From a phage, in NCBI GenBank assembly GCA_018865545.1, contig GCA_018865545.1_3633.1: 64,000 nucleotides of DNA, one strand, 5' to 3'. The notes under the pieces are model-generated. The model was not told the DNA's origin and searched no databases. It worked only from the letters and a program-made list of their open reading frames with translations. Numbering within the stretch: the stretch's first letter is position 1; each line of letters starts with the position of its first letter. The translations under genes were made by a program, and so were the position numbers. Positions 2,861-33,773 of the stretch are shown one piece after another.

Positions 2861-3054
2861 GAGAAAAAGAGGATACGTGTAAAATATGATGAGTTAGCTA
2901 TTCGTGTTGCCAAGGGGCTTGAGGGGTACATTCCCGCCAAGAGAAGCCCTTTGGCAAAGAAACATAAATCAAAAATAGGTAGTTTTCCACATAATCTATA
3001 ACCAACTAAGAGATGGGCGACGATACAGTCAAGCCCATCTTGAATAGGAGGAGT

Positions 3055-5825: not shown

Positions 5826-6458
5826 ATCATGTATGGAGCACAAGCTCCTAAGATAGCCGCAATGCTGGGTATCCCCCTTAATAGAGCACAGGCTGTAATA
5901 GACGCATTCTGGGATAGTAACTTCGGGTTGAAAATGCGTAGAGAGTGGTTAGAAAAATTCTGGGAGGCAAATGGGAGACGCTATATTCCAGGCATGGACG
6001 GGCGTAAAATTTGGACTCGTTCTAAACATTCTCTGCTGAATGCTTACCAACAAAACGGTGGTGCTTCATTGTTTGACCTCATGGGAGTCCTGTTCCATTG
6101 GGAATTGGTGAAACGGGGATGGTACGACCAAGGTGTCAGGAGGGTTATCTACTACCACGATGAGATACAGGTACAAGTACCGGAAAGATTTAAATCAATA
6201 ACGGAGCATTCTAACTTAGAGGCTGCACAAAGCTATGTAGACATGATGCTTGAAAAAGGCCATCGTTTCGACGGGCATTATGTGAAAGCAGGTAAAGTTA
6301 TTGTTGAACCTGATGTGTATGGGAAATACAGGATACTGCATTGCCCAGTAGGAGAGCTTGCAACAAAATGTGTAGAAAAAGCATCTAAGATAATGGGACT
6401 TCCCGTTTTAATTACAGGAGAATATCTTTGTGGATACACATGGGCAGATTCCCACTGA
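5826..6458 (+). CDS. DNA polymerase, family A, exon 2 (C-terminal polymerase part)
   Basis: In-frame continuation IMYGAQAPKIAAMLGI (second half of motif B), VIYYHDEIQVQV (motif C HDE); upstream in-frame stop at 5802 shows it is not an independent long ORF. Confidence 0.75.
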   Translation: MMYGAQAPKIAAMLGIPLNRAQAVIDAFWDSNFGLKMRREWLEKFWEANGRRYIPGMDGRKIWTRSKHSLLNAYQQNGGASLFDLMGVLFHWELVKRGWYDQGVRRVIYYHDEIQVQVPERFKSITEHSNLEAAQSYVDMMLEKGHRFDGHYVKAGKVIVEPDVYGKYRILHCPVGELATKCVEKASKIMGLPVLITGEYLCGYTWADSH

Positions 6459-7068
6459 TGAAGTAGAGGAAATTTGGAAGGATATCGTAGGGTATCCTGA
6501 TTATCAAGTAAGTAATTATGGAAATGTAAGATCTTTTAAATCAGGAATGTGGAAATACTTAAAAACTAAAAGTGAAAATTTATCTCCACAATGCTATCCG
6601 AGCGTGTGCTTGTACAAAAGGGGTAAAGATTCAGGGAAAAGTTTTTCAGTCCATAGACTTGTAGCGGAGGCTTTTAAAGAGCCTCCTTCTCCAGAATTGC
6701 AGAAAGAATGTAGAAAAACTGTGCTAGGAGTTCCAATTATAAACCACATAGATGGTGACAGACATAATAATAGGGTTGAAAATCTTGAGTGGTGTACCTA
6801 TAGCCATAACAATACAGTGGCTTATGGTATGGGGAGAATCCAAAAATTTGGTGATGATTATCATTTATCTGTTCTTACAAAGGAGAAAGTTTTAGAGATT
6901 GTACGGCTTATTGATTGTGGGATAACACACAAAGCTATTGCGGAACTATTCGGAGTTTCCAGAAATACAATATCTTCTTTAAATAATGGATACTCATGGT
7001 CACATGTCACAGGAAGACCTAAGAAAGTCCAGAAAAGAAGATCAAAAACAGACCCTATATCAGAGTAA
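6430..7068 (+). CDS. Free-standing HNH homing endonuclease (HNH_3/NUMOD-type)
   Basis: 212 aa; WKDIVGYPDYQVSNYGNVRS N-terminus, HRLVAEAF...INHIDGDRHNNRVENLEW core, C-terminal HTH-like ITHKAIAELFGVSRNTISS; overlaps 3' end of DNA polymerase. Confidence 0.75.
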   Translation: MDTHGQIPTDEVEEIWKDIVGYPDYQVSNYGNVRSFKSGMWKYLKTKSENLSPQCYPSVCLYKRGKDSGKSFSVHRLVAEAFKEPPSPELQKECRKTVLGVPIINHIDGDRHNNRVENLEWCTYSHNNTVAYGMGRIQKFGDDYHLSVLTKEKVLEIVRLIDCGITHKAIAELFGVSRNTISSLNNGYSWSHVTGRPKKVQKRRSKTDPISE

Positions 7069-7078
7069 GGTAAAAATA

Positions 7079-7450
7079 ATGAAAGTAAAAGGAACCAAGA
7101 CAACAACACAACTTATTGATGTTGAAGTAAACGACTCTGAAATCAAAAGAATCATAGATAGCCAAGACAAAATAATCTTGGCAGAAGCAATTCAACAAAA
7201 ACTTTTAAACAAATTCTTCAAAAGATGCCTACCTTCAATAGACGGAGAGATTATCGTAAGAAAGGACGCTAAGGCTGGCAATAGAGGAACACGGGTCTTC
7301 GTCCATGTTGATGCCGATTGGGATTACCATAATAATGTTGGTGTGGATAAAGAAATCAGGCCATTGACACACGGAGAGATTGTGCTGTATGAGAACATCC
7401 GAAAGCTACCTGAGTATATAATGTCGTTGGATGCTGAATTGGCTAATTAA
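7079..7450 (+). CDS. Hypothetical protein
   Basis: ORF; start moved to internal ATG 7079 (MKVKGTK...) just after HNH stop. Confidence 0.45.
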   Translation: MKVKGTKTTTQLIDVEVNDSEIKRIIDSQDKIILAEAIQQKLLNKFFKRCLPSIDGEIIVRKDAKAGNRGTRVFVHVDADWDYHNNVGVDKEIRPLTHGEIVLYENIRKLPEYIMSLDAELAN

Positions 7451-7516
7451 GAACACTTGCTATAGGCAATCTGTTTGTGTATCATTTCGCTACCTGACAC
7501 TTTGTGGAGAATTTCT

Positions 7517-7936
7517 ATGAGAAATGTAAAGATACATGCAATACCAAGTGACTATTTATCACCCCCTGTACAAGGGAGTTCCTTCTGTACAGACATGGTT
7601 TCTTACGATGACTACAAGAAACTGGAGGGTATGTTCATTGACGTAGCATCAGAAAATGCACTCCTAAAGAAGTTCATTCGTGAGAGTTGTTATGTTTTTG
7701 ATGGGGAACAATCTGATATCTCTGATGCATATACCCCAGCAGATCAATCACTTTTAATGCCTGGTTTGGAAGCCACACAGAAGTTTTCTACAGAGATGAT
7801 GGCTCAAGGTGTTCATATGTACGGTATGCTCACAATCCGTATCGGAGAGCAGGAGCAAGAAGAAAGCATCATCTATGCGGGAAAGCAAGCCCTTCTTTAT
7901 GCAGAACAACTTCGTAATGGAGATTTCGAACAATGA
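7517..7936 (+). CDS. Hypothetical protein
   Basis: ORF; start at ATG 7517 preceded by ggaga; C-terminal region resembles C-terminus of ORF 11228-11683 (QGV-M ... LR-G pattern). Confidence 0.45.
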   Translation: MRNVKIHAIPSDYLSPPVQGSSFCTDMVSYDDYKKLEGMFIDVASENALLKKFIRESCYVFDGEQSDISDAYTPADQSLLMPGLEATQKFSTEMMAQGVHMYGMLTIRIGEQEQEESIIYAGKQALLYAEQLRNGDFEQ

Positions 7937-8427
7937 ATTTTGATATTACAAAGCTACATGTCTTACTACAAAGTTTTTACCTTTCTTACGATGCTTGGGT
8001 AAAAAGAGGAGCACCAGACTCTGATATTTTCTCTCGTGACTGCGGTTTGTGTGCTAATTTATATGATTGGTGTAATGTGAATCATTTGTCCGGCTACATG
8101 GATGACCTACTGGACATGCTGCATGATGATTTCGAAAAGGCGGGGCTAGATAAAAGATTGCCTTTCAACCAGACAAGCCCCTATAGTAGAGAAATGTTTA
8201 AAAATACTTGCCATAAGAACAAAGAACGCTTGCAATGGGTACAAGACAATATAGATTTGTTCAAGAAGGAGCAAGGAGCTTTAAGAAATAAGTATGAAAC
8301 TTTGAGCGACGCTGCTAAAATGGTTGTGTATACATGGGCAAGTGCGGACAGTAAACAATTTAAAGCAAGTATGGATAAAAGCGTCCCTGTATTACGAGAT
8401 ATTCTGTTCAATGAGGGGGAATCATGA
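7933..8427 (+). CDS. Hypothetical protein
   Basis: 164 aa ORF, start overlaps previous stop (ATGA), operon-like packing. Confidence 0.5.
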   Translation: MNFDITKLHVLLQSFYLSYDAWVKRGAPDSDIFSRDCGLCANLYDWCNVNHLSGYMDDLLDMLHDDFEKAGLDKRLPFNQTSPYSREMFKNTCHKNKERLQWVQDNIDLFKKEQGALRNKYETLSDAAKMVVYTWASADSKQFKASMDKSVPVLRDILFNEGES

Positions 8428-8738
8428 AAACCTTTACAAAAGAGCAGCTACTTAAGCATGTTCGCTCTAATGTTGACCATCTGAAAGACCTCCAACAGCG
8501 TGTTGGTGAGGCTGGAGATGAGTATAAGAAGATTTTTGACATGGTATCTCTTGATTTGGAGATTGCTAAGATCGCATTAAATGCATTAGAAGCAAAACCG
8601 ATTGGTGCTTTCCATATCGCAGAGCAGCAAGTCGATGGTACAAGCGATTATATCAAAGATGGGGAATGGCCCATTGATAACGGAACAATTGAAGTGTACA
8701 CTTCACCACTTGCTTTTACAAAGAGTAGCCGATATTAG
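8424..8738 (+). CDS. Hypothetical protein
   Basis: 104 aa ORF, ATGA overlap with upstream gene. Confidence 0.5.
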   Translation: MKTFTKEQLLKHVRSNVDHLKDLQQRVGEAGDEYKKIFDMVSLDLEIAKIALNALEAKPIGAFHIAEQQVDGTSDYIKDGEWPIDNGTIEVYTSPLAFTKSSRY

Positions 8739-8792
8739 ATAATTTACCAAAAATGGGTTTCTTTGGCATATTTTTCACAAATGGTTCTTATT

Positions 8793-9662
8793 ATGAAAGA
8801 TAAAGTTTTTGTTCCGCCTATAAAATCGCAAGGGATTAAGACTAAACTGGTTCCGTGGATAAAGAGAATTGTTCCTAAAAACTTTAATGGGGTATGGGTC
8901 GAGCCGTTTATGGGGACTGGAGTTGTTGCCTTTAACGTTGCTCCTAAAGATGCATTATTATGTGATACAAACCCTCATTTGATTTCTTTTTATAATGCAT
9001 TGAAAAATAAAGATATAACAGGGGATCTTGTTAAGGATTTTTTATATCGTGAAGGTGAAAAACTCTTATTAAGTAATGGTGAGTATTATTATGAAGTCAG
9101 GGAAAGGTTTAATAATTACAAGGAACCTTTAGATTTTTTATTCTTAAATAGGTCTTGTTTTAATGGTATGATTAGGTTTAATAGTAAAGGAGGGTTTAAT
9201 GTTCCTTTTTGTAAAAAACCAAACAGATTTGCACAAGCATATATTACCAAGATTTCGAATCAAGTTGATAGGATTTCTGAAATAATATCAAAAGGGAACT
9301 ATACATTCTTGTGTCAGTCATTTGAAAAAACTATTGGCATGGTAAATAGGGATGATGTTGTTTATTGTGATCCTCCATATATTGGTAGGCATGTTGATTA
9401 TTTTAATTCATGGGGAGAGCGTGACGAGCGTTTATTATTTGAAACGTTATCATCTTTGAATGCTACATTTATAACGTCTACGTGGCATCATAATGATTAT
9501 AGGGAAAATAAGTACGTTCGTGATTTATGGTCATCTTTTAGAATATTGACGAAAGAACATTTTTATCATGTTGGAGCGTCCGAAAAAAACAGATCCCCGA
9601 TGGTAGAGGCGCTAATTACAAATATCAATTACTTACCCCAGGCTGAAGCTGCGAAATGTTGA
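8793..9662 (+). CDS. dam: DNA adenine (N6) methyltransferase, Dam-like
   Basis: [11 protein letters not shown] (FxGxG AdoMet motif) and VVYCDPPY (DPPY catalytic motif); start placed at MKDKVF; gene visibly more AT-rich than neighbours. Confidence 0.75.
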
Positions 9663-9680
9663 GATTAAGGTGAAATAGTT

Positions 9681-10052
9681 ATGACCACTATTACCAAAGA
9701 ACGTCTGCTGACAATCAAGCAATGGCGCGAAACATACGGACTAGGTAGCAACGTTGTACTGCCAGCAGAAGAAGCGCAAGAACTGGCTCGAATTGCTCTG
9801 GCATCGCTGGAAACAGAGCCTGTAGCATGGATGTGTGAGGACGCAGATGGTCGTGAGTATAACGCTCGCAATGAATTTTCTGGTGGGAGGAAAGGAACCC
9901 CACTCTACACCTCTCCTAACGTGCAGGTAGTGCCGGAAGAAATGTATTGGCAGGATGCGCCAGTTGAAGGCAGCAGCAAAGCGGCTGCATACGCTACAGG
10001 CTGGAATGCCTGCCGCGCCGCTATGCTCAAAAAGAAGGGGATGAATCAATGA
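9681..10052 (+). CDS. Hypothetical protein
   Basis: 123 aa ORF in co-directional early block. Confidence 0.45.
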   Translation: MTTITKERLLTIKQWRETYGLGSNVVLPAEEAQELARIALASLETEPVAWMCEDADGREYNARNEFSGGRKGTPLYTSPNVQVVPEEMYWQDAPVEGSSKAAAYATGWNACRAAMLKKKGMNQ

Positions 10053-10291
10053 CTTGGCCTGAAGCATTCACAACGGTAGGGGTTGTAATGGCTGTAGCCT
10101 TTGCAGTGTACTCAGTTTGTCGATGGGGGTGATGATGATAAAAGAACAACTAGGGAATGATACTCAAAAATCACGTTTTCAGCAGTGGTTGGAACAACAA
10201 CATGACCAGATTGATGTGGATTGTGGTTGTGTTTCTATTGAAACATTCATGTATTGGTTACAAGTGGCGTATGAGGCAGGAGGAGATTTAA

Positions 10292-10678
10292 ATGAGCAAT
10301 GGTTATCAACCTGTCATCTCGGAAATGACTAATGTTGCGCTTCCACCTTCGTCACCAAGCCTTAAAGCAGCAACCCAACAACCAGTTGCTTGGCGCTATC
10401 GTTATGTAAAACAGGGAAATCTGTGGACTGGTGACTGGAAATATGTCCCAACAAAAGAAGATTGTAACGACAGACCAAACTACGAAATTCAGGCGTTATA
10501 CACCACACCTGTAACTTTAGAAGGTTTGTCTAAAGCAGTGCGCTTCTATGAACAGGTTAAGCGTGAAAATCCACCAGTCGAAACAGGGGCATGGAAAGAT
10601 GCTATTGACTGGATACTCAAAGAGGCATATGATGTGGTAAATAAAACCACACAGGACTTATCGAGTTATGAAAATTGA
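10292..10678 (+). CDS. Hypothetical protein
   Basis: 128 aa ORF. Confidence 0.45.
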   Translation: MSNGYQPVISEMTNVALPPSSPSLKAATQQPVAWRYRYVKQGNLWTGDWKYVPTKEDCNDRPNYEIQALYTTPVTLEGLSKAVRFYEQVKRENPPVETGAWKDAIDWILKEAYDVVNKTTQDLSSYEN

Positions 10679-10997
10679 TTACCAAAAATTACGTAAGCTA
10701 GCGGAGATAGCAAGAGATGGTGGTACTTATCAAGAAATAACTGACTACCGTACTATGGCCACACCTCAGCTTGTGCTGGCATTAATTGAAGAAATTGAAG
10801 ATCAAGGCAAACGTATTGCAGATCTGGAGGCACGGATAGTAGATCTTCCTCAACGGTTGCAACCTGGTGCTGATGGTTATGATGATTGGTATATGCACAG
10901 CGCAGATGATGGTGAATATTTCAAAGCCGATGAGGTTATCGCGGCAATCTACGCCGCTGGCATTCGCCTCAAGGAGGCAACCAGTGAGCGGAATTAA
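10668..10997 (+). CDS. Hypothetical protein, paralog A of a tandem pair
   Basis: 109 aa; IDYQKLRKLAEIARDGG...ATPQLVLALIEEIEDQGK shared with downstream ORF. Confidence 0.5.
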   Translation: MKIDYQKLRKLAEIARDGGTYQEITDYRTMATPQLVLALIEEIEDQGKRIADLEARIVDLPQRLQPGADGYDDWYMHSADDGEYFKADEVIAAIYAAGIRLKEATSERN

Positions 10998-11235
10998 TTA
11001 CCAAGCACTGCGTGAGGCGGCGCAGAACGCGAAAGATTTAGGTGGGATTAAGAATTACAAGCGAGGCGAGCAAGCTGTTGCCGAATTTGAGTCCTTGATA
11101 ACACCACACATTGTGCTGGCGCTACTGGATGAAATTAAGAAGTTAGAAGACACAAATATTGACGCCATGTGTCAAATTGCAGAACTCAAAACTAATGTCA
11201 AGTTATTGAAGGAAGGGGTAACTAGCCATGACTGA
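10984..11235 (+). CDS. Hypothetical protein, paralog B of a tandem pair
   Basis: GTG start 10984 after aaggagg RBS; INYQALREAAQNAKDLGG...ITPHIVLALLDEIKKLED parallels upstream gene. Confidence 0.45.
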   Translation: MSGINYQALREAAQNAKDLGGIKNYKRGEQAVAEFESLITPHIVLALLDEIKKLEDTNIDAMCQIAELKTNVKLLKEGVTSHD

Positions 11236-11683
11236 GAAATCGGTGCATATTGATGAAATCAAACGTCTTGGTGCTAAATGTGCAACTCTTTTAGAAGAGA
11301 AATACCATGATAAAAAGAAAATCTCCGAACTTGCGACTCGTTGTGCAGAGCTAGTCGCTGAAAATATAGTGCTGCACAGGGCAATTAAAGCTGTCCACAA
11401 TGTTGCTGATAACTCCAGTGGGGTTGCCGATTGGCATTTGAATGGCGATATCTCTGCATGGGAAGAGGTTCTTCCTGAAATTTATGATATCAAAACCCCA
11501 GCTACCGATGCTTTCCTGGCTGAAGTACGGGCGCAGGGCGTGGAGATGCTGGCAAAAAATCATCAGAGTATCGTCAATGCACTTAAGGGAGATTCTTTAT
11601 TTTCTGATGGTGAAAACCGACATGCAGCTATTGTTTCCGCAGCCGTATATTTCGCCGCAGAGCTTCGCAAAGGGGGTGAGTAA
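11228..11683 (+). CDS. Hypothetical protein
   Basis: 151 aa ORF. Confidence 0.45.
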   Translation: MTEKSVHIDEIKRLGAKCATLLEEKYHDKKKISELATRCAELVAENIVLHRAIKAVHNVADNSSGVADWHLNGDISAWEEVLPEIYDIKTPATDAFLAEVRAQGVEMLAKNHQSIVNALKGDSLFSDGENRHAAIVSAAVYFAAELRKGGE

Positions 11684-11864
11684 TGCGTGTGGCATGTATC
11701 GGCCTGTTACCGTATCCGATTCGATTTTGGGCATCTGCGCCAATTGCAAATCCGAATATCCTGATGGCTGACAACATCATCTCGGCACAGAAGCGCCATA
11801 CCGGTATTGCAGCGGCACGACGAGCAGCCAAGAAACGCAGAAAGTCAAAACATAAGAGGAAATA

Positions 11865-12030
11865 ATGAAAGAAATATTATTTGCATTCATATTTGCACTT
11901 GTAAGTGTTCCTGTGGCGATGGTTATGGCTGGTTTACCAGTTCATAAAGGGCTGCTTTTTGCGGGGCATATAGGAGCTTTTGTCATAGGTTTGCTCACTT
12001 GTCTACAGGTGGTTGCTAAAGATGTGTAAA
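11865..12030 (+). CDS. Small hydrophobic membrane protein (54 aa)
   Basis: Below ORF-track cutoff; ATG after aagagga RBS; MKEILFAFIFALVSVPVAMVMAGLP...GAFVIGLL has two hydrophobic segments. Confidence 0.4.
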
Positions 12031-12678
12031 AATCGTTTTTACATGATGTGCTTGCGTGAAACTGTAGGTAATAACGCCTCATTCCATTGCCATAACGGTA
12101 ATGGTTACAGTTCTGATATCGATCGCGCTCATGTTTACACGCTGGAAGAAGCCCAAAAAGCCTGGAATTGTGGTCGAGATATCGATCAACCTGTTTGTGC
12201 CGATAGTGTGGATGCAATGGCTGTGTGGCACGTTGATTGCCAGTACATCCCTACAGAAAGCCTGATTGAGTCAGATTGCACTGCGTATGTGGCCTACAAA
12301 AAAGGTAGCTGGAACGGCAACGATGTTTACTGGCTTCAACACGGTGGATTGCCAACAGATGACTTCAGTAAAGCAACCATCTTTAGCGTCACCAACAGAA
12401 ACGAACCAGGAATAGTTTGGTTGCCATTTTCCATTGCTGATTCAGCAAAGCGCAGGACGTTCAATATCAATAACTTTAACCGCAGAACAATGGCTCAGGG
12501 CGCAGGTTTGATCATGCCTGACTGGTTGAAAAAGCAGAACAGAAGAAAGAAGTCACGAACCGGGAAGGTGCGTTGGAATTGTCCGTATTGCGGAAAAATA
12601 GTCTGGCAGTACAGTCCCTATGATTTTGAAGGATGTCGTGATCACAACTGTGAAGGGTGGGTATATGGAAGATTTTAA
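12022..12678 (+). CDS. Hypothetical Cys/His-rich protein
   Basis: ORF; FHCHNGNG and C-terminal CPYCGKIVW...CRDHNCEGW suggest metal-binding. Confidence 0.45.
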   Translation: MCKNRFYMMCLRETVGNNASFHCHNGNGYSSDIDRAHVYTLEEAQKAWNCGRDIDQPVCADSVDAMAVWHVDCQYIPTESLIESDCTAYVAYKKGSWNGNDVYWLQHGGLPTDDFSKATIFSVTNRNEPGIVWLPFSIADSAKRRTFNINNFNRRTMAQGAGLIMPDWLKKQNRRKKSRTGKVRWNCPYCGKIVWQYSPYDFEGCRDHNCEGWVYGRF

Positions 12679-12874
12679 AATTAAACAAGGTTGTTTATAC
12701 AAGTCTAAATTATCTTGGGATCCAGAGCAGAAATACCTTGTTACTGCCGTTGGTTTAAATCATGTCTTGATTACTGACTACCCTTTGATTAAAATTAACG
12801 AGGGTTATTTAGAGCACTGTTTAACATACAAACAGTTCAAAGAAGACTTTATCTATGTTGGGGAGGTAGAATAA
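12665..12874 (+). CDS. Hypothetical protein
   Basis: ORF, start placed at internal ATG to avoid long overlap. Confidence 0.35.
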   Translation: MEDFKIKQGCLYKSKLSWDPEQKYLVTAVGLNHVLITDYPLIKINEGYLEHCLTYKQFKEDFIYVGEVE

Positions 12875-13404
12875 TGGAACTTTCTAAATTCGCAGACTTG
12901 GTTAACCATATAGCCTCTTTACGTGGGAAACAATATCAGGATCCAGACACTAAAGTAACAATTGTTATTCATTCCCCAAGTACTGTTGGAGCAACACCTT
13001 CGGTTGATGTTCAATCTATACATGCAGGATTCGATTGGGATAGTGGACAAATAATGATTTTCCCATCTCAACCACTCACTGTGCTCTCAAAAGAGCAAGT
13101 AGAGGCCATTTGTGAAAGTGTTCATAAAGGACAATCTTGGCACGCTTTTCAAGAATACAAAAGACATAAGGAAGAAATTGAAAAAGCACAGGCTCGTATT
13201 AAAGAGCTTGAAGAAGATCTTGGAAATATAAAACTTGTTGCTTCGGGTCTGCTCTCTGAATATCTCATGAATAAAGGTACTGATCTGGAATTTATCGCCT
13301 GTGTGACTCCATCGAAAAACACAATAGGTAATGGTGGTGTGTGGGATATGTGGCGAAAACTGGATAAGATGATTGGAGATAAAGATGAAAAATCGCAAAG
13401 CTAA
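12874..13404 (+). CDS. Hypothetical protein
   Basis: 176 aa ORF with coiled-coil-like stretch (EEIEKAQARIKELEEDLGN). Confidence 0.45.
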   Translation: MELSKFADLVNHIASLRGKQYQDPDTKVTIVIHSPSTVGATPSVDVQSIHAGFDWDSGQIMIFPSQPLTVLSKEQVEAICESVHKGQSWHAFQEYKRHKEEIEKAQARIKELEEDLGNIKLVASGLLSEYLMNKGTDLEFIACVTPSKNTIGNGGVWDMWRKLDKMIGDKDEKSQS

Positions 13405-13594
13405 AATCCTTCTCCTGCCAAGGAAAAGGGAATCCCAAGTATTAAAAGTAAGCAATAGACGTGTTGTTTTATTTAAGTATTATGGCGCAATGGTTGCCGG
13501 AGAGAGAAAAAAGTTAAGCATAAAACAAAAGATTAAATACAGGAAACTCGAAAAAATATTTAATAATGCAATGGCAAAATTGAGGAATAACTAG
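13385..13594 (+). CDS. Hypothetical small basic protein
   Basis: ORF, Lys/Arg-rich; ATG 13385 after ggaga. Confidence 0.35.
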   Translation: MKNRKAKILLLPRKRESQVLKVSNRRVVLFKYYGAMVAGERKKLSIKQKIKYRKLEKIFNNAMAKLRNN

Positions 13595-13888
13595 ATGACC
13601 AAAGAAATGTGGGAACATCACGAGGATTTGTTTGGTGAAAACCAAGTTATTGTTAAAGGTAGTCTTGAGAAAGAGGGAAACGGAATGGAGAGCTACTCCC
13701 CAATCTGTACCGCTGAAAACGGGAATCTAGCTTTGGCTATTGCAATGTGTCCCTTGATTGTGGATGCTCTCGAACAAGCCCTACCATATGTAAAAGCGGC
13801 AGCAAAAACTGATGGACATGCCAACGGAACTTATCAGCTTGCAGCTAACATTGTTTCTGACTGGAAGAGATATATGAATAAAGGATAG
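13595..13888 (+). CDS. Hypothetical protein
   Basis: 97 aa ORF. Confidence 0.45.
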   Translation: MTKEMWEHHEDLFGENQVIVKGSLEKEGNGMESYSPICTAENGNLALAIAMCPLIVDALEQALPYVKAAAKTDGHANGTYQLAANIVSDWKRYMNKG

Positions 13889-13892
13889 AAAC

Positions 13893-14249
13893 ATGATGTC
13901 TTTTTTAGAGTGGGTCCAGGTGCATAATAACTGGTTCCCTGCTTTATCGTTTTATGTGTTGTGTTCTATTTGGGCTTTCATTTTATCGTATAAAGGGACA
14001 TGGAAACACGTTGTTGTCTCTTTTGTTATGTTCGTTATTCTTGGGGCAACAACTATTAACTACTTTCTCCTTTACGAGGATGGCTACAAAGAGTACACAA
14101 AAAACTGGGAATCGTGCACAACACAAAAAGCATTGGATGAAATGTATGTCTTCGATAATGTAAAAGAGAAATGTATGAAGCCTGTTGTTGGCTTTGTACC
14201 AACAGAGAGCGTAGATATACTGGAAATTAAAAATGGAGATTGGACATGA
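13893..14249 (+). CDS. Hypothetical membrane protein
   Basis: 118 aa; two hydrophobic segments (WFPALSFYVLCSIWAFILS, VVSFVMFVILGATTINYFLL). Confidence 0.45.
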   Translation: MMSFLEWVQVHNNWFPALSFYVLCSIWAFILSYKGTWKHVVVSFVMFVILGATTINYFLLYEDGYKEYTKNWESCTTQKALDEMYVFDNVKEKCMKPVVGFVPTESVDILEIKNGDWT

Positions 14250-14521
14250 CAAACAAAAAGTTAACAGGTGCACAACTTGTTGAGAATCTCAAAGAGAAAC
14301 TTCGCAACAACCCCTCTTTGGAAGAGGAATTGCTACTTAAATATTTCGAAGATAATGTGGATATGCTCCCTGTGGAATATGGTTGTCCAGAGGGTTTCCA
14401 CAAAGCATTTCGACAAGTGGATGTGTGTAAGAAAGGCTATCAAGATATGGTTATTTGGAGTATCCTTTCAGGAGGGGATTCGGAAAGGGTTTGGGAAGTT
14501 ATAGAAGAGTTTTTCTCTTGA
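14240..14521 (+). CDS. Hypothetical protein
   Basis: 93 aa ORF. Confidence 0.45.
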   Translation: MDMTNKKLTGAQLVENLKEKLRNNPSLEEELLLKYFEDNVDMLPVEYGCPEGFHKAFRQVDVCKKGYQDMVIWSILSGGDSERVWEVIEEFFS

Positions 14522-14528
14522 GGTTTTT

Positions 14529-14720
14529 ATGAGATTTTTATCTGCGTTAAGCATTCTCTTCATAGCGTTGAAGTTGTGTGAGATTATAGACTGGTCTTGG
14601 TGGTTAGTTCTTGCCCCTCTATACCTACCATGGGCAATTGTTGTCATGCCCCCTTTGATTATAGCGGTTACAGCATTTGTCCTGTCTTTTCTCCAAGAAA
14701 AAGACAAAAAATCATCTTGA
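14529..14720 (+). CDS. Small membrane protein
   Basis: 63 aa, almost entirely hydrophobic (two predicted TM helices). Confidence 0.4.
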   Translation: MRFLSALSILFIALKLCEIIDWSWWLVLAPLYLPWAIVVMPPLIIAVTAFVLSFLQEKDKKSS

Positions 14721-14745
14721 CATACATGCATGCATAGTGTAAGAT
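14717..14745 (+). promoter_or_regulatory. Sigma70-like promoter candidate (TTGACA-N17-TAAGAT)
   Basis: ttgaca 14717-14722, 17 nt spacer, taagat 14740-14745, about 30 nt upstream of ORF 14777. Confidence 0.4.
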
Positions 14746-14776
14746 GTGATACTCAACAACCTTGTAAGGAATAGAC

Positions 14777-15118
14777 ATGCCTAAAGAAAAACAAACACCT
14801 GAAAATAAAGAGGATATCCGTTTTCTTGATCTTGATGAAGGGCAGTTTGGAACAATCGTATACTTGTCCAGCGCCAGTCACCAGATGGGAACAGTAATCG
14901 GGTCGAAAGAAATTCGAGAAGAGATGCTAAAGCTCATCCAAAGTGGTAACTATAAAACGGTAGAGGATGCAATTTCATGGATCCGAGGACACCGCAACAA
15001 TTTGTTGAAATTAAATACTGCTTCCACTTTTGCATTGAACCTGCTAAATCAAGTTGAAGATTTAGTGGTAGATAAAATGTTGAGCGTTGGAAACGAAACT
15101 GCTGAAGGCGTTAAGTAA
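14777..15118 (+). CDS. Hypothetical protein
   Basis: 113 aa ORF downstream of promoter candidate. Confidence 0.5.
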   Translation: MPKEKQTPENKEDIRFLDLDEGQFGTIVYLSSASHQMGTVIGSKEIREEMLKLIQSGNYKTVEDAISWIRGHRNNLLKLNTASTFALNLLNQVEDLVVDKMLSVGNETAEGVK

Positions 15119-15132
15119 TAAAAGGAGAGAGA

Positions 15133-16350
15133 ATGAGCGTAATCAATGAATTTAAGAATCCAATCAACGGAAAAGTTGATTATTTTGCGAAAGGTTTTAT
15201 CAAGTATGTTAATATTCGTCCAGTGAAAAACGCTGACGCAGATGGTATCCGGCGTACCCATATCCCTGCTCGCAACGGGCAACCAGCTAAAGTTATTGAG
15301 GCTACGCACTCAATCAGTTTCCTGATGCAAGAGGTTGACGATAATAACAACGTTATTGACCCACAGAGCCAAGGTGAGTGGATTTCTATGGGTGAGAAAA
15401 AACTTCACCCAAGCCATGCAGACAAAATTCAGGTGAAATTTGATTCTGGATACAAAGATATTGTGGCGGGGATGGTTGTTTCTTTCCCTCTCAAAATTAC
15501 TAAGAGTGGGGATAAAACGTATACAAACGGCACTTTAAACGGAAAGACCTTCAGCATTCTCGATGAAAGTAAAGTTGGTCAAAGTGCTCCTCGCCAGCAA
15601 TCTTCGACCCAATCACCTGCAAATGCCCAAGTTAAAGGCACTAAAATTTATGGTGAGATTGCTGCAATCGTTGGCAATGTGGTGACAGTTAATGATGAGA
15701 AGAATGGTCAAGGAAACCTTGTCCTCACAGATGAGCAATTGGCGCAAGTTGTAGTAGGTGGTCGTGTCACTGCGATTGTTAACCTAAGTGATGGTACGGT
15801 CTTAAGTGGATTTAAAGCCTATGGTCCTGCTGGGCAGACTAAGAAGTCATCTGGCGGCTATGATGCTTTAGGTGTTGCTTGTGGACACGGCATCAACGGT
15901 GTGAAGGAACTCATTAAAGCTGGTTTTAAGATCGAGGATCGTCTCTCTGCCGCGAAGATGGTTCACAACGCTACAGTAGCTATGAAGGCTTTTGTGGCAG
16001 AGAAAACAGGAAAAGATGTGGAATCTAATGCGGTGGGCGCTAGTGCGGGTAATGCTATCTTAGTGGCTTGTGCTTTGTATCATCAAACCGATAAACTAAC
16101 AGAAGATAGTATTCTGAATGCCGCCAAAGATGTTTACCTAACACTATCAGAGCCGTTTTACGAGTTCTTATCTAAAGGTGATGGGAAGACACAACAAAAG
16201 AACAAACAGCATGCTAAGGAACCTTTGAACAGTTCCAATAGCGATATTCCGAATATGGAATCGCCAGCACCTGAATTTGACTATGATGAAGATATCCCTT
16301 TCAGTCCTGTAGGTCTACAGTACGGTAAACATCGGGTATACATCCTGTAA
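15133..16350 (+). CDS. Putative single-stranded DNA-binding protein-like
   Basis: 405 aa; acidic FDYDEDIPF near C-terminus resembles the SSB C-terminal tip (DDDIPF) but is followed by 15 more residues; RBS aaggagaga. Confidence 0.35.
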   Translation: MSVINEFKNPINGKVDYFAKGFIKYVNIRPVKNADADGIRRTHIPARNGQPAKVIEATHSISFLMQEVDDNNNVIDPQSQGEWISMGEKKLHPSHADKIQVKFDSGYKDIVAGMVVSFPLKITKSGDKTYTNGTLNGKTFSILDESKVGQSAPRQQSSTQSPANAQVKGTKIYGEIAAIVGNVVTVNDEKNGQGNLVLTDEQLAQVVVGGRVTAIVNLSDGTVLSGFKAYGPAGQTKKSSGGYDALGVACGHGINGVKELIKAGFKIEDRLSAAKMVHNATVAMKAFVAEKTGKDVESNAVGASAGNAILVACALYHQTDKLTEDSILNAAKDVYLTLSEPFYEFLSKGDGKTQQKNKQHAKEPLNSSNSDIPNMESPAPEFDYDEDIPFSPVGLQYGKHRVYIL

Positions 16351-16363
16351 ATACCTCATAAAA

Positions 16364-16390
16364 ATGGAGGGGAGATCCCCTCCATTTTTT
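16364..16390 (+). terminator. Rho-independent terminator
   Basis: ggagggg-agat-cccctcc hairpin followed by attttttg, right after stop of 15133-16350. Confidence 0.7.
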
Positions 16391-16535
16391 GATTAAAGTC
16401 TAGGTGTTTATTAGGGATTTATACAACAGTGGCGATCTTATGATAATTACATACTCCTATAAAGTGTGGATTATTTGTAATAAATATTTACTTGTAAAAA
16501 TAAGTGATGTCCTACAAAATTATAAAAGAGCTTTA

Positions 16536-17168
16536 TTAAACCACCGTTACTGTTTCTTTGTGGGTGGCAGAAACATCTTTGTATGTACCTTTTAATCCAC
16601 ATTGTGCCTCACCAGAGGATATGCATGTAAATATCCCGCTAGGAGCCATGCTTATGATGTTAGGTGTTTCTGCAAACCCATAGACAGAGAAGTCATCTTC
16701 TTCCATGATCTCTGGCGGGAATACATCAAAACCAACCATATTAGGGGATGGGTTGCCAGGATCAAAAGAAGGATCGCCTCTATAGACAAACCAGAACCTG
16801 TCCCCGATTGATCTATTTCCTATAGGGTCAACGTCCAATCTCAACTCTTCTACATTTCCAGTTATAACATCGGATAAAGTTATATCTCCAACTGTCTTTG
16901 CTGTCATCAATATACTGAAGTAACCTTCTGAAATAAAGGATATTTCCCCATCTTTATTAACAGAGACCGAATCCGGCGTATTAGCTTCAAAAGTTATATC
17001 ATATATATCAGCCCCTTCGGGGGAAACCGCATACGCCAGCTTTTTAGAACTACCTTTTAATGCAATACCTATAGGTTGTAAAGTTATGGATTGTGCCGCT
17101 ATCTTGTTAATAATTGTATTATAGAAACAAGGAATTGGATACATTAAACCTCCTAAAACAAAGGCCAC
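16536..17168 (-). CDS. Tail-associated protein with Ig-like (Big_2-type) domain
   Basis: 210 aa; pattern LAYAVSPEGADIYDITFEANTPDSVSVNKDGEISFISEGYFSILMTAKTVGDITL typical of bacterial Ig-like domains. Confidence 0.4.
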   Translation of the reverse strand: MAFVLGGLMYPIPCFYNTIINKIAAQSITLQPIGIALKGSSKKLAYAVSPEGADIYDITFEANTPDSVSVNKDGEISFISEGYFSILMTAKTVGDITLSDVITGNVEELRLDVDPIGNRSIGDRFWFVYRGDPSFDPGNPSPNMVGFDVFPPEIMEEDDFSVYGFAETPNIISMAPSGIFTCISSGEAQCGLKGTYKDVSATHKETVTVV

Positions 17169-20026: not shown

Positions 20027-20611
20027 TTACTCAACTGACGGTCTTATAGCCCATGTTATGTTAGGAGCATCCTCAGTTTTAATGCTTAATACCTCACAAC
20101 GATAAATCTTTAATTTCTTAAGAATATCTGCCATGTGCTCTGGTAGTTTTTTACCTGTTACCTGCTCATAGTCTTCATATGTCTGAATATATTGACTTGC
20201 CCATGCAATTTCCTTATCCTTGTGAAGTTTTGCCTCTTGTATAGATCGGAAATAGGTATAAACAAATTTGCCATCTTTTAATGCCACGTCACCGAGGTCA
20301 TACTCAATGCCTTTAGGCAAATTTTCTACCGGAACAACCGCTATTTTCCAGCCGCTGAAAGGAGTGCACCCATCAAAACCTTCATAGCAAACGCAGCAAA
20401 CCCTATCGTCGAGATCCAGCGAAAGAAAAGCATATTTCCCCGGCTCTGTTTGGGATTTCAATTCTTCGGCTATTTCATAATAGTCTTTCCCCGTAGATTC
20501 TTCATAGAAAAAAGGGGCGAAAGGGTTAGCTTCCAACAATCTTTTCGTAGCTCCTGTTGCATTATCAGGAAGTGGAGAATAAGGGAAAAATGGTCCAAAT
20601 ATTTTGTTCAT
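20027..20611 (-). CDS. Hypothetical protein
   Basis: 194 aa ORF. Confidence 0.45.
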   Translation of the reverse strand: MNKIFGPFFPYSPLPDNATGATKRLLEANPFAPFFYEESTGKDYYEIAEELKSQTEPGKYAFLSLDLDDRVCCVCYEGFDGCTPFSGWKIAVVPVENLPKGIEYDLGDVALKDGKFVYTYFRSIQEAKLHKDKEIAWASQYIQTYEDYEQVTGKKLPEHMADILKKLKIYRCEVLSIKTEDAPNITWAIRPSVE

Positions 20612-20628
20612 GCAACTCTCCTGAATGA

Positions 20629-21723: not shown

Positions 21724-21738
21724 AAAAGTATCTCCTTC

Positions 21739-23802: not shown

Positions 23803-23814
23803 ATGTGGTCTCCT

Positions 23815-24492: not shown

Positions 24493-24502
24493 AATAACAT
24501 CC

Positions 24503-25996: not shown

Positions 25997-26065
25997 GATT
26001 ATGCCTCCTCTTGTAAATTATTATAAGATGTGGTTATTTTACCACAATATGTCTTAATTATAAAT

Positions 26066-26095
26066 AGTAAACACAAATAAAGGGGCATAAGCCCC
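26066..26095 (-). terminator. Rho-independent terminator candidate (minus strand)
   Basis: aaaggggc-ataa-gccccttt hairpin, T-rich on minus strand just downstream of 26102 stop. Confidence 0.45.
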
Positions 26096-26101
26096 TTTCC
26101 A

Positions 26102-26629: not shown

Positions 26630-26638
26630 TTACACTCC

Positions 26639-28338: not shown

Positions 28339-28343
28339 AATTA

Positions 28344-28694: not shown

Positions 28695-28704
28695 CTATAG
28701 TTCC

Positions 28705-29571: not shown

Positions 29572-29617
29572 AAGAACCTCACTTGTTATTGTATGATTTT
29601 ATCATAAATCTTTTATT

Positions 29618-29647: not shown

Positions 29648-29650
29648 AAA

Positions 29651-33764: not shown

Positions 33765-33773
33765 ACGAAATTA

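What the first reader, a model, noticed from the sequence alone, without database searches (positions are those of the whole stretch)
11865..15118. Dense early block of small ORFs including three tiny membrane proteins
About 12 tightly packed or overlapping small genes follow the replication genes, including an unannotated 54 aa hydrophobic ORF (11865-12030), a 63 aa double-TM ORF (14529-14720), a 118 aa membrane ORF, and a Cys/His-rich protein. None has a recognisable function. Such early small-protein blocks are where host-takeover and anti-defence factors are typically found.
Basis: inference. Interest (0 to 1): 0.4.

Follow-up and report, generated by a model that had tools for sequence, protein, structure and literature searches.

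The report
Mosaic small-gene block in Avunavirus phage
This is a real but ordinary run of ten small phage genes of unknown function in an Av-05-like E. coli phage: half are recently swapped in from temperate phages, and half are a conserved backbone module that ends in a probable single-stranded-DNA-binding protein.

Summary
Window 11865-15118 carries 10 (not ~12) + strand genes and is 97.9% coding. Most have Shine-Dalgarno sites, and 7 of 8 genes tested show purifying selection. Three encode small hydrophobic proteins (54, 118 and 63 aa). One is a Cys/His-rich 218-aa protein with a C-terminal zinc ribbon. None matches a family of known function.

The genome is an Avunavirus, 95.5% identical to Escherichia phage Av-05, where all ten genes are already annotated as hypothetical proteins.

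The block is not one functional unit.
- 11683-13594 is a gene-by-gene mosaic of accessory genes. The 218-aa gene is ~95% nt identical to P7 upf87.6 and to P1-like and P22-like phage genes, and this stretch occurs in 625 of 5426 complete E. coli genomes.
- 13893-16350 is a Vequintavirinae backbone module, syntenic with PVP-SE1 genes 33, 34, 37, 38 and 39. It has a conserved sigma-70 promoter (14717-14745) and ends in a 405-aa protein carrying the E. coli SSB tail motif and an OB-like domain.

Host-takeover or anti-defence roles remain untested inference. The 218-aa protein gives a confident model with no structural relatives. Interest is low (0.2).

The parts
11683..11865 (+). 60-aa gene with a very basic C-terminal tail (KKRRKSKHKRK). 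It lies just outside the finding but belongs to the same cassette.
   Evidence: Full-length match to phrog_13831, E=2.4e-31. 86% nt identical to a 58-aa CDS in a P1-like phage. Called in one Logan contig. Not annotated in Av-05.
11865..12029 (+). 54-aa hydrophobic protein with two predicted TM helices; a lineage-restricted orphan.
   Evidence: RBS AAGAGGAAATA-ATG and KD/GES hydropathy. pN/pS 0.29 against Av-05, p=0.004. The only homologue is in Av-05, at 87% aa identity. Only one cluster among 1.84 billion representatives. Annotated as Av05_00118.
12022..12678 (+). 218-aa Cys/His-rich protein (phrog_2457; homologue of P7 Upf87.6 and of IME10 hkaG). It has an alpha/beta N-terminal part, a basic linker and a C-terminal zinc ribbon. 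It is horizontally mobile.
12665..12874 (+). 69-aa protein (phrog_20019).
   Evidence: phrog_20019, E=3e-39. ~50% identical homologues in 42-48 kb Escherichia, Salmonella and Raoultella phages such as SETP13, ST20 and RP180. Absent from phage 18-1-2.
12874..13404 (+). 176-aa protein: an N-terminal beta-rich domain (phrog_6026) followed by a heptad-like, probably coiled-coil stretch that hits the same PHROG (368) as the neighbouring Ead/Ea22-like genes.
   Evidence: phrog_6026 E=3.5e-50 and phrog_368 E=2e-14. The N-terminal domain occurs in 137 phage records, including the ~72-75 kb Pseudomonas phages LIT1 and LUZ7. pN/pS 0.15.
13385..13594 (+). 69-aa very basic protein (pI 11.4; phrog_1380).
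   Evidence: phrog_1380, E=1e-22. 54% identical homologues in Stx phages (933W 3802-3951) and P1-like RCS47, close to the homologue of the 60-aa gene.
13595..13888 (+). 97-aa acidic protein with no family assignment.
   Evidence: No Pfam or PHROG hit. Homologues only in Av-05 and four ~137-147 kb Klebsiella phages, at 54-55%. Selection test not significant, p=0.09.
13893..14249 (+). 118-aa membrane protein: an N-terminal two-helix hairpin plus a ~58-aa C-terminal domain with two conserved Cys, predicted to be periplasmic. First gene of the conserved Vequintavirinae module.
   Evidence: KD/GES hydropathy. phrog_7941. Full-length homologues in 68 phage records from 8 host genera. 38% identical to PVP-SE1 gene 33, which its record notes as 2 TM, with both Cys conserved. 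pN/pS 0.03. The K-rich inter-helix loop (YKGTWKH) puts both termini outside by the positive-inside rule (inference).
14246..14521 (+). 91-aa acidic protein, a DUF7238 member.
   Evidence: PF23885, 38.3 bits against a cut-off of 27, E=1.6e-9. 60% identical to PVP-SE1 gene 34.
14529..14720 (+). 63-aa membrane protein (phrog_1374) with the conserved motif LFIALKLxxxIDWSWWLVLAP.
   Evidence: phrog_1374, E=1.6e-19. Weak Tmemb_185A hit, 18 bits, below the cut-off. 249 phage records across Proteobacteria, Actinobacteria and Streptococcus phages. Motif seen in alignment A3. 74% identical over 39 aa to PVP-SE1 gene 37, noted as 2 TM. pN/pS 0.08 against 18-1-2.
14717..14745 (+). Sigma-70-type promoter (TTGACA-17-TAAGAT) in the only sizeable intergenic gap, placed to drive the 113-aa and 405-aa genes.
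   Evidence: 10/12 consensus match. Both hexamers and the spacing are conserved in Av-05, 18-1-2 and PVP-SE1 while the spacers diverge. Function not shown.
14777..15118 (+). 113-aa acidic protein (phrog_7310).
   Evidence: phrog_7310, E=7e-51. 63% identical to PVP-SE1 gene 38. pN/pS 0.07-0.16.
15133..16350 (+). 405-aa probable ssDNA-binding protein (phrog_4477; PVP-SE1 gene 39 / rV5 gp209 family). Two beta domains, a 4-helix domain and a disordered tail carrying the SSB tip motif DYDEDIPF, here followed by a 15-aa extension.
16360..16390 (.). Bidirectional intrinsic terminator (AAAAAT-GGAGGGG-AGAT-CCCCTCC-ATTTTTT) where the + strand unit meets the - strand tail genes.
   Evidence: Read directly from the sequence. 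Terminator scan. PVP-SE1 has annotated bidirectional terminators at the equivalent position.

Best explanation
The block is the distal part of an ~8-kb accessory region (about 6986-15118). It sits inside the replication-gene transcription unit of a virulent Av-05-like Avunavirus. It has two parts with different histories.

(1) 11683-13594 (extending leftwards to about 9650) is a gene-by-gene mosaic of small, individually mobile accessory genes.
- Several are shared with temperate coliphages: the 60-aa gene, the 218-aa zinc-ribbon gene and the basic 69-aa gene. They sit among Ead/Ea22-like genes.
- Others are shared with unrelated virulent phages.
- One, the 54-aa membrane ORF, is an orphan.
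- The 97-aa gene (13595-13888) is of unclear affinity; its only relatives are in Av-05 and four large Klebsiella phages.

(2) 13893-16350 is an inherited Vequintavirinae backbone module. In order it holds a 2-TM protein with a probable periplasmic disulfide domain, a DUF7238 protein, a small membrane protein, an internal sigma-70 promoter, a 113-aa protein, a probable SSB and a bidirectional terminator.

Likely mode of action (inferred):
- The genes are transcribed by host RNA polymerase, by read-through from upstream and from the internal promoter.
- They are translated as tightly coupled cistrons.
- They act as dispensable, non-structural modifiers of the infected cell.
- The three hydrophobic proteins insert in the inner membrane.
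- My best single guess for the conserved 118-aa and 63-aa pair is an envelope-level function such as superinfection exclusion, as with T4 Imm and Sp.
- The zinc-ribbon protein and the basic proteins probably bind nucleic acid or host proteins.

Shown here: the genes are real, the block is a mosaic, the right half is syntenic, the promoter is conserved, and the SSB tail motif is present. Inferred only: timing, dispensability of most genes, and every biochemical role.

The confidence value applies to the anatomical and evolutionary account. The specific superinfection-exclusion guess on its own is worth about 0.25.
For: Genome identity: 95.5% nt to Av-05 over the region, classified as Avunavirus. 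Av-05 is described as lytic (PMC4463512).

The genes are real: RBSs, pN/pS 0-0.37 with significant tests, and four independent colinear assemblies.

Mosaic structure:
- Three Avunavirus genomes differ in gene content between 9.6 and 14.2 kb. Av-05 has an extra 136-aa gene. Phage 18-1-2 lacks 11560-12027 and 12661-14218.
- Window 12028-12660 is ~95% nt identical to P7 upf87.6, a P1-like phage and a Lederbergvirus, with sharp breakpoints at the gene ends.
- 625 of 5426 complete E. coli genomes (412 chromosomal and 317 plasmid places) match, but none covers 80% of the query; the best matches cover only window 11653-12660.
- GC of the shared genes is 0.45-0.49, against 0.40 for the window.
- Each remaining small gene has a different phage distribution.

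Backbone module:
- Protein-level synteny with PVP-SE1 genes 33, 34, 37, 38 and 39 at 38-74% identity.
- The 118-aa gene is present in 68 phage records, with the 63-aa homologue ~1 kb away in the same genomes.

Promoter.

SSB-like end gene. The rV5 paper lists no SSB.

Early-expression context of the homologues:
- P7 has a C1 operator, Op(hea), upstream of upf86.8-upf87.6.
- The Lederbergvirus homologue lies between a RecT-family recombinase gene and excisionase.
- Exo-xis region literature: PMC10834534, PMC8614690.
Against: - There are no transcript, ribosome-profiling or proteomic data for any of these genes.
- Promoter-like sites in the region are not enriched over shuffles: 28 found against 32 expected. 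Only the one conserved site carries weight.
- The superinfection-exclusion guess rests on size, topology and conservation alone. No PHROG annotated as an exclusion protein matched.
- Phage 18-1-2 lacks the 118-aa gene, so it is dispensable at least there.
- TM helices come from hydropathy scales only, and the first helix of the 63-aa protein is weak on the GES scale.
- The selection tests use closely related pairs with few substitutions.
Confidence: 0.6

Rival explanations
1. One reading: the block is a host-takeover and anti-defence island, and one or more of the small proteins (for example the 218-aa zinc-ribbon protein or the basic 60- and 69-aa proteins) inhibit a bacterial immune system or shut off a host process.
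For: - The genes are small, variable between close relatives and individually mobile.
- The 218-aa gene has spread across temperate and virulent phages and sits in ~11% of complete E. coli genomes. That fits a broadly useful effector.
- It folds confidently into a structure with no known relatives, as many anti-defence proteins do.
- Homologues lie in early accessory regions of temperate phages.
Against: - No homology to any characterised inhibitor.
- No library of anti-defence proteins was available here, and PADLOC covers defence systems, not counter-defence.
- The conserved right half does not behave like an arms-race locus (pN/pS 0.03-0.16; syntenic across genera).
- The only functional literature on the neighbouring Ea22-type genes concerns the lysis-lysogeny decision, not defence (PMC7093339).
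Confidence: 0.2
2. The small membrane proteins control lysis. The 63-aa protein is predicted to be N-in/C-in with a charged C-terminus, so it would be a class II holin or pinholin-like protein. The 118-aa protein, with its periplasmic domain, would be an antiholin or lysis-inhibition sensor like T4 RI.
For: - The topology and charged tail (QEKDKKSS) of the 63-aa protein resemble holins.
- No holin homologue was found in rV5. The only candidate there (gp129) was picked by TM prediction alone.
- Holin and endolysin can be unlinked, as in T4 (established knowledge).
Against: - No holin PHROG or Pfam family matched.
- In Av-05 the endolysin lies ~20 kb upstream, next to rIIA and rIIB.
- The genes lie among replication genes, next to a consensus sigma-70 promoter that suggests early rather than late expression.
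- The 63-aa family's most conserved part is helix 1 and the loop motif IDWSWW, not a typical holin feature.
Confidence: 0.1
3. The conserved right-hand genes (118 aa, DUF7238, 63 aa, 113 aa) are accessory factors of the replication machinery. They could, for example, anchor or regulate the replisome at the membrane together with the downstream SSB-like protein.
For: - They lie between the primase/helicase and DNA polymerase genes on one side and the probable SSB on the other, on the same strand.
- Synteny is strict across genera.
- The 113-aa gene shares a conserved promoter with the SSB-like gene.
Against: - None of them resembles a known replication protein.
- Phage 18-1-2 lacks the 118-aa gene.
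- PVP-SE1 has two unrelated extra genes inserted in the module, so the linkage is loose.
Confidence: 0.12
4. Some of the ORFs are not genes. In particular, the 54-aa orphan and the 97-aa ORF could be chance open frames in AT-rich DNA.
For: - The 54-aa ORF has no relatives beyond Av-05-type genomes.
- The 97-aa ORF has no PHROG hit, and its selection test is not significant, p=0.09.
Against: - Both have an RBS and fit without gaps into the + strand gene string.
- The 54-aa ORF shows a significant deficit of non-synonymous change, p=0.004, and stays open in Av-05 at 89% nt identity.
- The 97-aa ORF has 54-55% identical homologues in four Klebsiella phages.
Confidence: 0.04

Closest known systems
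Escherichia phage Av-05 genes Av05_00118 to Av05_00107 (NC_025830; Avunavirus, Vequintavirinae)
   Same: Same genes in the same order at 89-99.5% nt identity per gene. All ten are annotated there as hypothetical proteins; the 63-aa gene is labelled 'transmembrane Fragile-X-F protein'.
   Different: - Av-05 has an extra 136-aa gene (Av05_00115) between the 69-aa and 176-aa genes.
- It has no annotated counterpart of the 60-aa gene.
- It differs in parts of 9.9-11.5 kb.
- Its SSB-like protein stops right after ...DEDIPF.
- The adjacent tail gene is different.
Salmonella phage PVP-SE1 genes 33-39 (Seunavirus, Vequintavirinae)
   Same: The order 2-TM protein, DUF7238-like protein, 2-TM protein, 113/117-aa protein, 405/409-aa SSB-tail protein, bidirectional terminator, then tail genes on the other strand. 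Identity is 38-74% at protein level. The TTGACA-N17-TAATAT promoter sits in the same gap.
   Different: PVP-SE1 has two extra genes (35 and 36) inside the module. It has PnuC/NadR-type NAD salvage genes upstream where this window has the mosaic accessory cassette.
Early accessory regions of temperate coliphages: the lambda/Stx exo-xis region, the P22-type ea region, and the C1-controlled operon of P7 holding upf86.8-upf88.3
   Same: Strings of small, non-essential, early-transcribed genes of mostly unknown function, including Ead/Ea22-like coiled-coil proteins. The 218-aa, 60-aa and basic 69-aa genes have direct homologues there, up to 95% nt identical (PMC10834534, PMC8614690, PMC7093339).
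   Different: - Here the genes sit in a virulent myovirus with no lysogeny decision to modulate.
- They lie downstream of the DNA polymerase gene rather than between recombination and integration genes.
- Gene order differs (60 aa, then 54 aa, then 218 aa here; 218 aa ... 60 aa in the P1-like phage).
T4 Imm and Sp (small early inner-membrane superinfection-exclusion proteins) and T4 RI
   Same: Small size, N-terminal membrane anchor(s), a short periplasmic domain (for the 118-aa protein), conservation within a virulent myovirus lineage, and location among early or middle genes. This rests on my own knowledge of T4 plus the topology inference; see the review PMC11436027.
   Different: No sequence similarity was detected, and no exclusion-annotated PHROG matched. 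No functional test exists. Resemblance is in form only.
E. coli SSB and phage SSBs with host-like acidic tips (for the flanking 405-aa protein)
   Same: A disordered C-terminal tail with the motif (PPM)DFDDDIPF, which aligns to the E. coli SSB tail. An OB-like beta domain.
   Different: - 405 aa with two beta domains plus a 4-helix domain, and no PF00436 hit.
- In this window, and in about a quarter of the family members aligned, the tip is not C-terminal but is followed by about 15 further residues (consensus APIGLQYGxxxIxxx).

Membership tests
DUF7238 (PF23885), for the 91-aa protein 14246-14521 | Score above the Pfam gathering threshold (27 bits) | tested here: met
   38.3 bits, E=1.6e-9, covering profile positions 27-110 of 112. 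The same Pfam family is recorded for the identical gene in ENA/Logan contigs.
Tmemb_185A / 'Fragile-X-F' (PF10269), for the 63-aa protein | Score above the Pfam gathering threshold (23.1 bits) | tested here: not met
   18 bits, E=0.0026, covering only profile positions 144-185 of 252. A few homologues do carry a precomputed PF10269 hit. The Av-05 product name therefore rests on a sub-threshold match to one repeat unit.
Ead/Ea22-like (PF13935), for the 176-aa protein 12874-13404 | Pfam match above the 27-bit cut-off | tested here: not met
   No PF13935 hit at E<=0.1. The protein only shares phrog_368 (E=2e-14) with neighbouring genes, one of which (10867-11235) does pass PF13935 at 31.9 bits.
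phrog_2457 (P7 Upf87.6 / IME10 hkaG family), for the 218-aa protein | Full-length profile match with conserved zinc-ribbon cysteines | tested here: met
   E=4e-114 over profile positions 2-218 of 222. C187, C190 and C205 invariant and C210 at >=90% in 58 sequences. The family has no known function.
Protein tyrosine phosphatase (a note in the P7 record for Upf87.6) | CX5R active-site loop, or a match to a PTP family | tested here: not met
Holins (class II / pinholin), for the 63-aa protein | Two TM helices, N-in/C-in, with a charged C-terminus | tested here: inconclusive
   Hydropathy and charge distribution are compatible, but helix 1 is weak on the GES scale. No topology predictor was available.
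Holins (class II / pinholin), for the 63-aa protein | Homology to a holin family, or linkage to an endolysin or spanin gene | tested here: not met
   No holin PHROG or Pfam hit. The endolysin is ~20 kb upstream in Av-05, and there is no lysis gene in 6986-16350.
T4 Imm/Sp-type superinfection exclusion, for the 118-aa and 63-aa proteins | Sequence or profile similarity to Imm, Sp or other annotated exclusion proteins | tested here: not met
   Only function-unknown PHROGs matched (phrog_7941, phrog_1374). Nothing in PADLOC.
T4 Imm/Sp-type superinfection exclusion, for the 118-aa and 63-aa proteins | Expression in trans blocks DNA entry of the same or related phages | not testable with these tools
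   Needs plating and DNA-injection assays.
Anti-defence proteins (Acr, anti-RM, anti-CBASS and so on) | Homology to a characterised inhibitor, or a demonstrated rescue of phage on a defence-carrying host | not testable with these tools
Bacterial-type SSB, for the flanking 405-aa protein | Acidic C-terminal tip D-F-D-D-D-I-P-F at the end of a disordered tail | tested here: met
   D, P and F of the DIPF tip are invariant across 44 homologues and the consensus ends PPMDFDDDIPF. The profile aligns to the E. coli SSB tail, E=0.016. The tail is disordered in the AF2 model. In this window the motif is internal (DYDEDIPF plus 15 aa).
Bacterial-type SSB, for the flanking 405-aa protein | OB-fold ssDNA-binding domain / PF00436 match | tested here: inconclusive

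The most novel reading that the evidence does not exclude
The 218-aa zinc-ribbon protein (12022-12678) is a new-fold effector of general use to coliphages, for example an inhibitor of a widespread host defence or nucleic-acid-processing pathway. That would explain three things: it moves as a single-gene cassette at ~95% nt identity between P1/P7-type plasmid prophages, P22-like and Stx prophages and a virulent Vequintavirinae phage; it is present in about one in nine complete E. coli genomes; and it has no detectable structural relative despite a pLDDT-93 model.
Probability: 0.15. Interest if true: 0.55.

Novelty: new member of a known kind. Interest (0 to 1): 0.2.

Why it matters
It matters little as it stands. 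Dense strings of small function-unknown genes in the non-structural arm of large virulent phages are the rule, and these particular genes are already deposited and annotated as hypothetical proteins in Av-05.

Three modest points are useful.
- The block should not be treated as one unit in a screen. Its left half is exchangeable cargo shared with temperate phages. Its right half is a lineage-conserved module, which gives different priors for function.
- The 218-aa family is widespread, well folded and structurally unassigned, which makes it a reasonable target for a functional screen.
- The gene closing the unit is probably the missing SSB of rV5/PVP-SE1-type phages. It comes in two forms, with an exposed or a masked host-SSB-like tip. 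That improves annotation and offers a simple biochemical question.

Tried and rejected
- **Family searches.** Pfam, NCBIfam and PADLOC scans of all ten proteins gave nothing of known function. The only hits were DUF7238 and sub-threshold matches to GreA_N, CTLH and Tmemb_185A. Every PHROG hit is 'unknown function'.
- **PDB sequence searches.** Five proteins and the two family profiles gave nothing significant. A weak eL43/L37a zinc-ribbon resemblance for the 218-aa family (E~0.06) is not significant. The SSB-tail match for the 405-aa family (E=0.016) is borderline statistically but is used above as supporting evidence.
- **RNA elements and repeats.** Rfam found no RNA family in 9-16.6 kb. There are no tRNAs there. 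No meaningful repeats were found; the one 36-nt direct repeat only reflects paralogous Ea22-like genes.
- **Promoter and terminator scan.** Counts do not exceed the shuffled expectation. I therefore kept only the promoter that is conserved across genera.
- **54-aa ORF as a type I toxin.** I considered this because a promoter-like site lies antisense at 11905-11876. I rejected it as unsupported: the match is a 9/12 consensus of the kind expected by chance, with no conservation evidence.
- **P7 record note.** The 'putative tyrosine protein phosphatase' label for Upf87.6 is not supported. There is no CX5R motif and no family or fold match.
- **Assembly chimera.** I considered this because the Av-05 record itself appears to contain T4/RB69-like genes. 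I rejected it for this block, since four independent assemblies are colinear across it.
- **Literature.** Searches for hkaG, upf87.6, DUF7238, the PHROG ids and PF10269 in phages found nothing relevant.

Full report
**What is there**

Window 11865-15118 holds ten + strand genes (54, 218, 69, 176, 69, 97, 118, 91, 63 and 113 aa). They cover 97.9% of the interval. Five junctions overlap. The only real gap is 56 nt, at 14721-14776. Most starts have a GGAG/GAGG-type Shine-Dalgarno sequence.

**Are the genes real?**

- Against Av-05 or phage 18-1-2, every gene has pN/pS of 0-0.37.
- A binomial test against neutral expectation gives p<0.005 for seven of eight genes tested. That includes the 54-aa ORF (p=0.004, 18 substitutions). 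The 97-aa gene is not significant (p=0.09, 9 substitutions).
- The whole block is colinear at 98.9-99.9% in four independent ENA/Logan assemblies. It is therefore not an assembly artefact.

**Which genome**

The region is 95.5% identical to Escherichia phage Av-05 (Avunavirus, Vequintavirinae). All ten genes are annotated there as hypothetical proteins, and the 63-aa gene is called 'transmembrane Fragile-X-F protein'. Av-05 is described as lytic (PMC4463512). So the 54-aa ORF is not unannotated in the public record.

Two other genes are the ones that get missed. The 60-aa ORF at 11683-11865 is absent from the Av-05 annotation, yet it matches phrog_13831 over its full length (E=2e-31). The 63-aa gene is not called in the metagenome contigs.

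**Context**

- Upstream on the same strand lie a DNA methyltransferase (13-708), a primase/helicase (860-2860), and a DNA polymerase split by two HNH endonuclease genes (3013-7068).
- From about 6986 onwards there are small function-unknown genes, a Dam-type methylase (8763-9662) and several Ead/Ea22-like genes.
- After the 405-aa gene there is a bidirectional terminator (16360-16390), and then tail genes on the - strand.
- The finding is therefore the distal 3.3 kb of an ~8-kb accessory region.

**The membrane proteins and the Cys/His-rich protein**

- On both the Kyte-Doolittle and GES scales, the 54-aa and 118-aa proteins each have two hydrophobic segments.
- The 63-aa protein has one strong segment (residues 36-55) and a weaker N-terminal one that contains K15, E18 and D21.
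- The PVP-SE1 record notes two TM helices, by TMHMM/Phobius/Octopus, for the homologues of the 118-aa and 63-aa proteins.
- In the 118-aa protein the inter-helix loop (YKGTWKH) is the only basic stretch. By the positive-inside rule (my inference), the ~58-aa C-terminal domain should be periplasmic. Its two cysteines are conserved in PVP-SE1 gene 33.
- The 63-aa family has a strikingly conserved motif, LFIALKLxxxIDWSWWLVLAP. Part of that invariance comes from the word-based search used to collect the sequences.
- The Cys/His-rich protein is the 218-aa one, with 11 Cys and 6 His.

**Function searches**

- Pfam, NCBIfam, PHROGs and PADLOC give no known function. The only family above threshold is DUF7238, for the 91-aa protein.
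- The Tmemb_185A hit that underlies the Av-05 product name is below Pfam's cut-off (18 against 23.1 bits).
- PDB sequence searches are empty.

**The block is a mosaic of two kinds of DNA**

*Left part (11683-13594).* Window 12028-12660 is essentially the 218-aa gene, with breakpoints a few codons inside each end. It is ~95% nt identical to P7 upf87.6, a P1-like phage and a Lederbergvirus. It also matches IME10 hkaG, SJ46 and Stx phages.

- Window 11653-12660 (the 60-aa and 218-aa genes) matches 625 of 5426 complete E. coli genomes, at 412 chromosomal and 317 plasmid places. No genome covers 80% of the 3.8-kb query.
- In P7 the homologue lies in a run of upf genes behind a C1 operator. In the Lederbergvirus it lies between a RecT-family recombinase gene and excisionase, next to an Ea22 gene. 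These are the early accessory regions of temperate phages. For lambda and Stx phages the literature describes the exo-xis region as among the earliest transcribed and of largely unknown function (PMC10834534, PMC8614690, PMC7093339).
- The basic 69-aa protein has 54% identical homologues in Stx phages and in P1-like RCS47.
- The 69-aa protein at 12665 has relatives in 42-48 kb Escherichia, Salmonella and Raoultella phages.
- The N-terminal domain of the 176-aa protein occurs in 137 phage records, including the Pseudomonas phages LIT1 and LUZ7.
- The 54-aa protein is an orphan, with one cluster among 1.84 billion representatives.
- The temperate-phage-shared 60-aa and 218-aa genes have GC 0.45-0.49, against 0.40 for the window.
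- Three Avunavirus genomes differ in content here. Av-05 has an extra 136-aa gene. Phage 18-1-2 lacks 11560-12027 and 12661-14218.

The 97-aa gene (13595-13888), between the two parts, has relatives only in Av-05 and four ~137-147 kb Klebsiella phages.

*Right part (13893-16350).* The 118-, 91-, 63-, 113- and 405-aa proteins are 38%, 60%, 74%, 63% and 66% identical to PVP-SE1 genes 33, 34, 37, 38 and 39, in the same order.

- The 118-aa protein has full-length homologues in 68 records of phages infecting eight host genera.
- The 63-aa homologue lies about 1 kb away in the same genomes.
- This is inherited backbone, not cargo.

**A conserved promoter**

The 56-nt gap before the 113-aa gene contains TTGACA-17-TAAGAT. 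The hexamers and their spacing are kept in Av-05, 18-1-2 and PVP-SE1 (TAATAT in the last two), while the spacers have diverged. This is the only promoter call I trust, because promoter-like sites in general are no more frequent than in shuffled sequence. It suggests host sigma-70 transcription of the 113-aa and 405-aa genes. The function of this site has not been shown.

**The 218-aa protein**

- The family has about 205 clusters, from Enterobacterales and Acinetobacter. All are labelled hypothetical and none has a Pfam domain. Length is conserved at about 215 aa.
- In 58 sequences C187, C190 and C205 are invariant and C210 is at >=90%. There is also a GNDxYW motif.
- AlphaFold gives mean pLDDT 93.
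- The profile search gives only a non-significant likeness of the basic linker plus zinc ribbon to ribosomal protein eL43.
- The P7 record's 'putative tyrosine phosphatase' note is unsupported. The sequence has no CX5R motif.

**The 405-aa protein**

This is outside the finding, but it closes the transcription unit.

- Across 44 homologues the D, P and F of the C-terminal DIPF tip are invariant, and the consensus ends PPMDFDDDIPF.
- The family profile aligns to the E. coli SSB tail, E=0.016.
- The model has two beta domains, a four-helix domain and a disordered tail.
- The rV5 paper lists no SSB.
- I read this as the probable SSB of this phage group, at moderate confidence.
- In this window, in PVP-SE1, and in about a quarter of the family members aligned, the tip is followed by about 15 further residues (consensus APIGLQYGxxxIxxx). 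Av-05 and 18-1-2 stop exactly at IPF.
- Divergence from Av-05 starts exactly after that codon and continues through the terminator and the first tail gene. This looks like a module swap with its breakpoint at the gene end.

**How it most likely works**

Shown: the genes are real, the block is a mosaic, the right half is syntenic, one promoter is conserved, a terminator closes the unit, and the end gene carries the SSB motif.

Inferred:
- Transcription is by host polymerase, by read-through from upstream and from the internal promoter.
- Translation of the overlapping cistrons is coupled.
- The products are dispensable modifiers of the infected cell.

My best single guess for the conserved 118-aa and 63-aa membrane pair is an envelope-level role such as superinfection exclusion, by analogy with T4 Imm and Sp. 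No homology supports this, and phage 18-1-2 lacks the 118-aa gene. The anti-defence and host-takeover reading is possible for the mobile left-hand genes, especially the 218-aa protein, but nothing here tests it.

**Rivals**

The alternatives considered were lysis control, replication accessory factors and spurious ORFs. They are set out with their tests in the structured fields.

**Verdict**

This is a correct but unremarkable observation. The genes are already public as hypothetical proteins, and the type of region is well known. Its value lies in the corrected anatomy, one widespread protein family with no structural relatives, and a better annotation of the flanking SSB-like gene. Interest 0.2.

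Noticed in passing
window 15133-16350 (+): The 405-aa protein (PVP-SE1 gene 39 / rV5 gp209 family, phrog_4477) carries the E. coli SSB C-terminal tip motif and an OB-like domain. It is probably the unannotated SSB of Vequintavirinae. In this window, and in about a quarter of the family members aligned, the tip is masked by a conserved extension of about 15 residues; Av-05 and 18-1-2 end exactly at ...IPF.
   Followed up: yes
window 16303-17168: Similarity to Av-05 stops exactly after the IPF codon (16302). The terminator and the first - strand tail gene differ (210 aa here, 647 aa in Av-05). This looks like a tail-module swap with its breakpoint at the end of the SSB-like gene.
   Followed up: partly
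window 11683-11865 (+): A 60-aa ORF with a highly basic tail has no annotated counterpart in Av-05. It matches phrog_13831 over its full length and has an annotated 58-aa homologue in a P1-like phage.
   Followed up: yes
window 3013-7068 (+): The DNA polymerase gene is split into at least two ORFs (3013-5094 and 5811-6458) by HNH endonuclease genes (5190-5675 and 6430-7068). Av-05 shows the same arrangement.
   Followed up: no
window 49624-49950 (-): An Rfam group I intron hit: 66 bits against a gathering score of 50, E=1.3e-14.
   Followed up: no
window 53933-59518 (-): A cluster of 15 tRNA genes. The Av-05 paper reports only 9 tRNAs (PMC4463512).
   Followed up: no
window 13-708 and 8763-9662 (+): Two DNA methyltransferase genes in the same unit: phrog_757, and a D12-class Dam-type enzyme (PF02086, E=5e-63).
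   Followed up: no
window 7475-7936, 10668-10997, 10867-11235, 11228-11683, 12874-13404 (+): Five genes hit the same Ead/Ea22-related PHROG (368); some also hit phrog_250 or phrog_492. Together they form a set of modular, probably coiled-coil paralogues in a virulent phage. The 36-nt direct repeat 10761/11101 reflects this.
   Followed up: partly
L007 (Av-05 NC_025830) 20602-35088, i.e. record positions 99.6-114 kb: The Av-05 reference record contains a run of T4-type genes: internal head proteins, endonuclease V, valyl-tRNA synthetase modifier and a lysis-inhibition gene. Its own paper reports 97% identity to RB69. The record was assembled from 36-nt reads and may be chimeric (PMC4463512).
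   Followed up: partly
window 14529-14720 (+) and alignment A3: The 63-aa membrane protein belongs to a very widely spread small phage protein family (249 phage records, from Rheinheimera to Gordonia, Mycobacterium and Streptococcus phages). The family has a near-invariant LFIALKLxxxIDWSWWLVLAP motif and no literature.
   Followed up: partly
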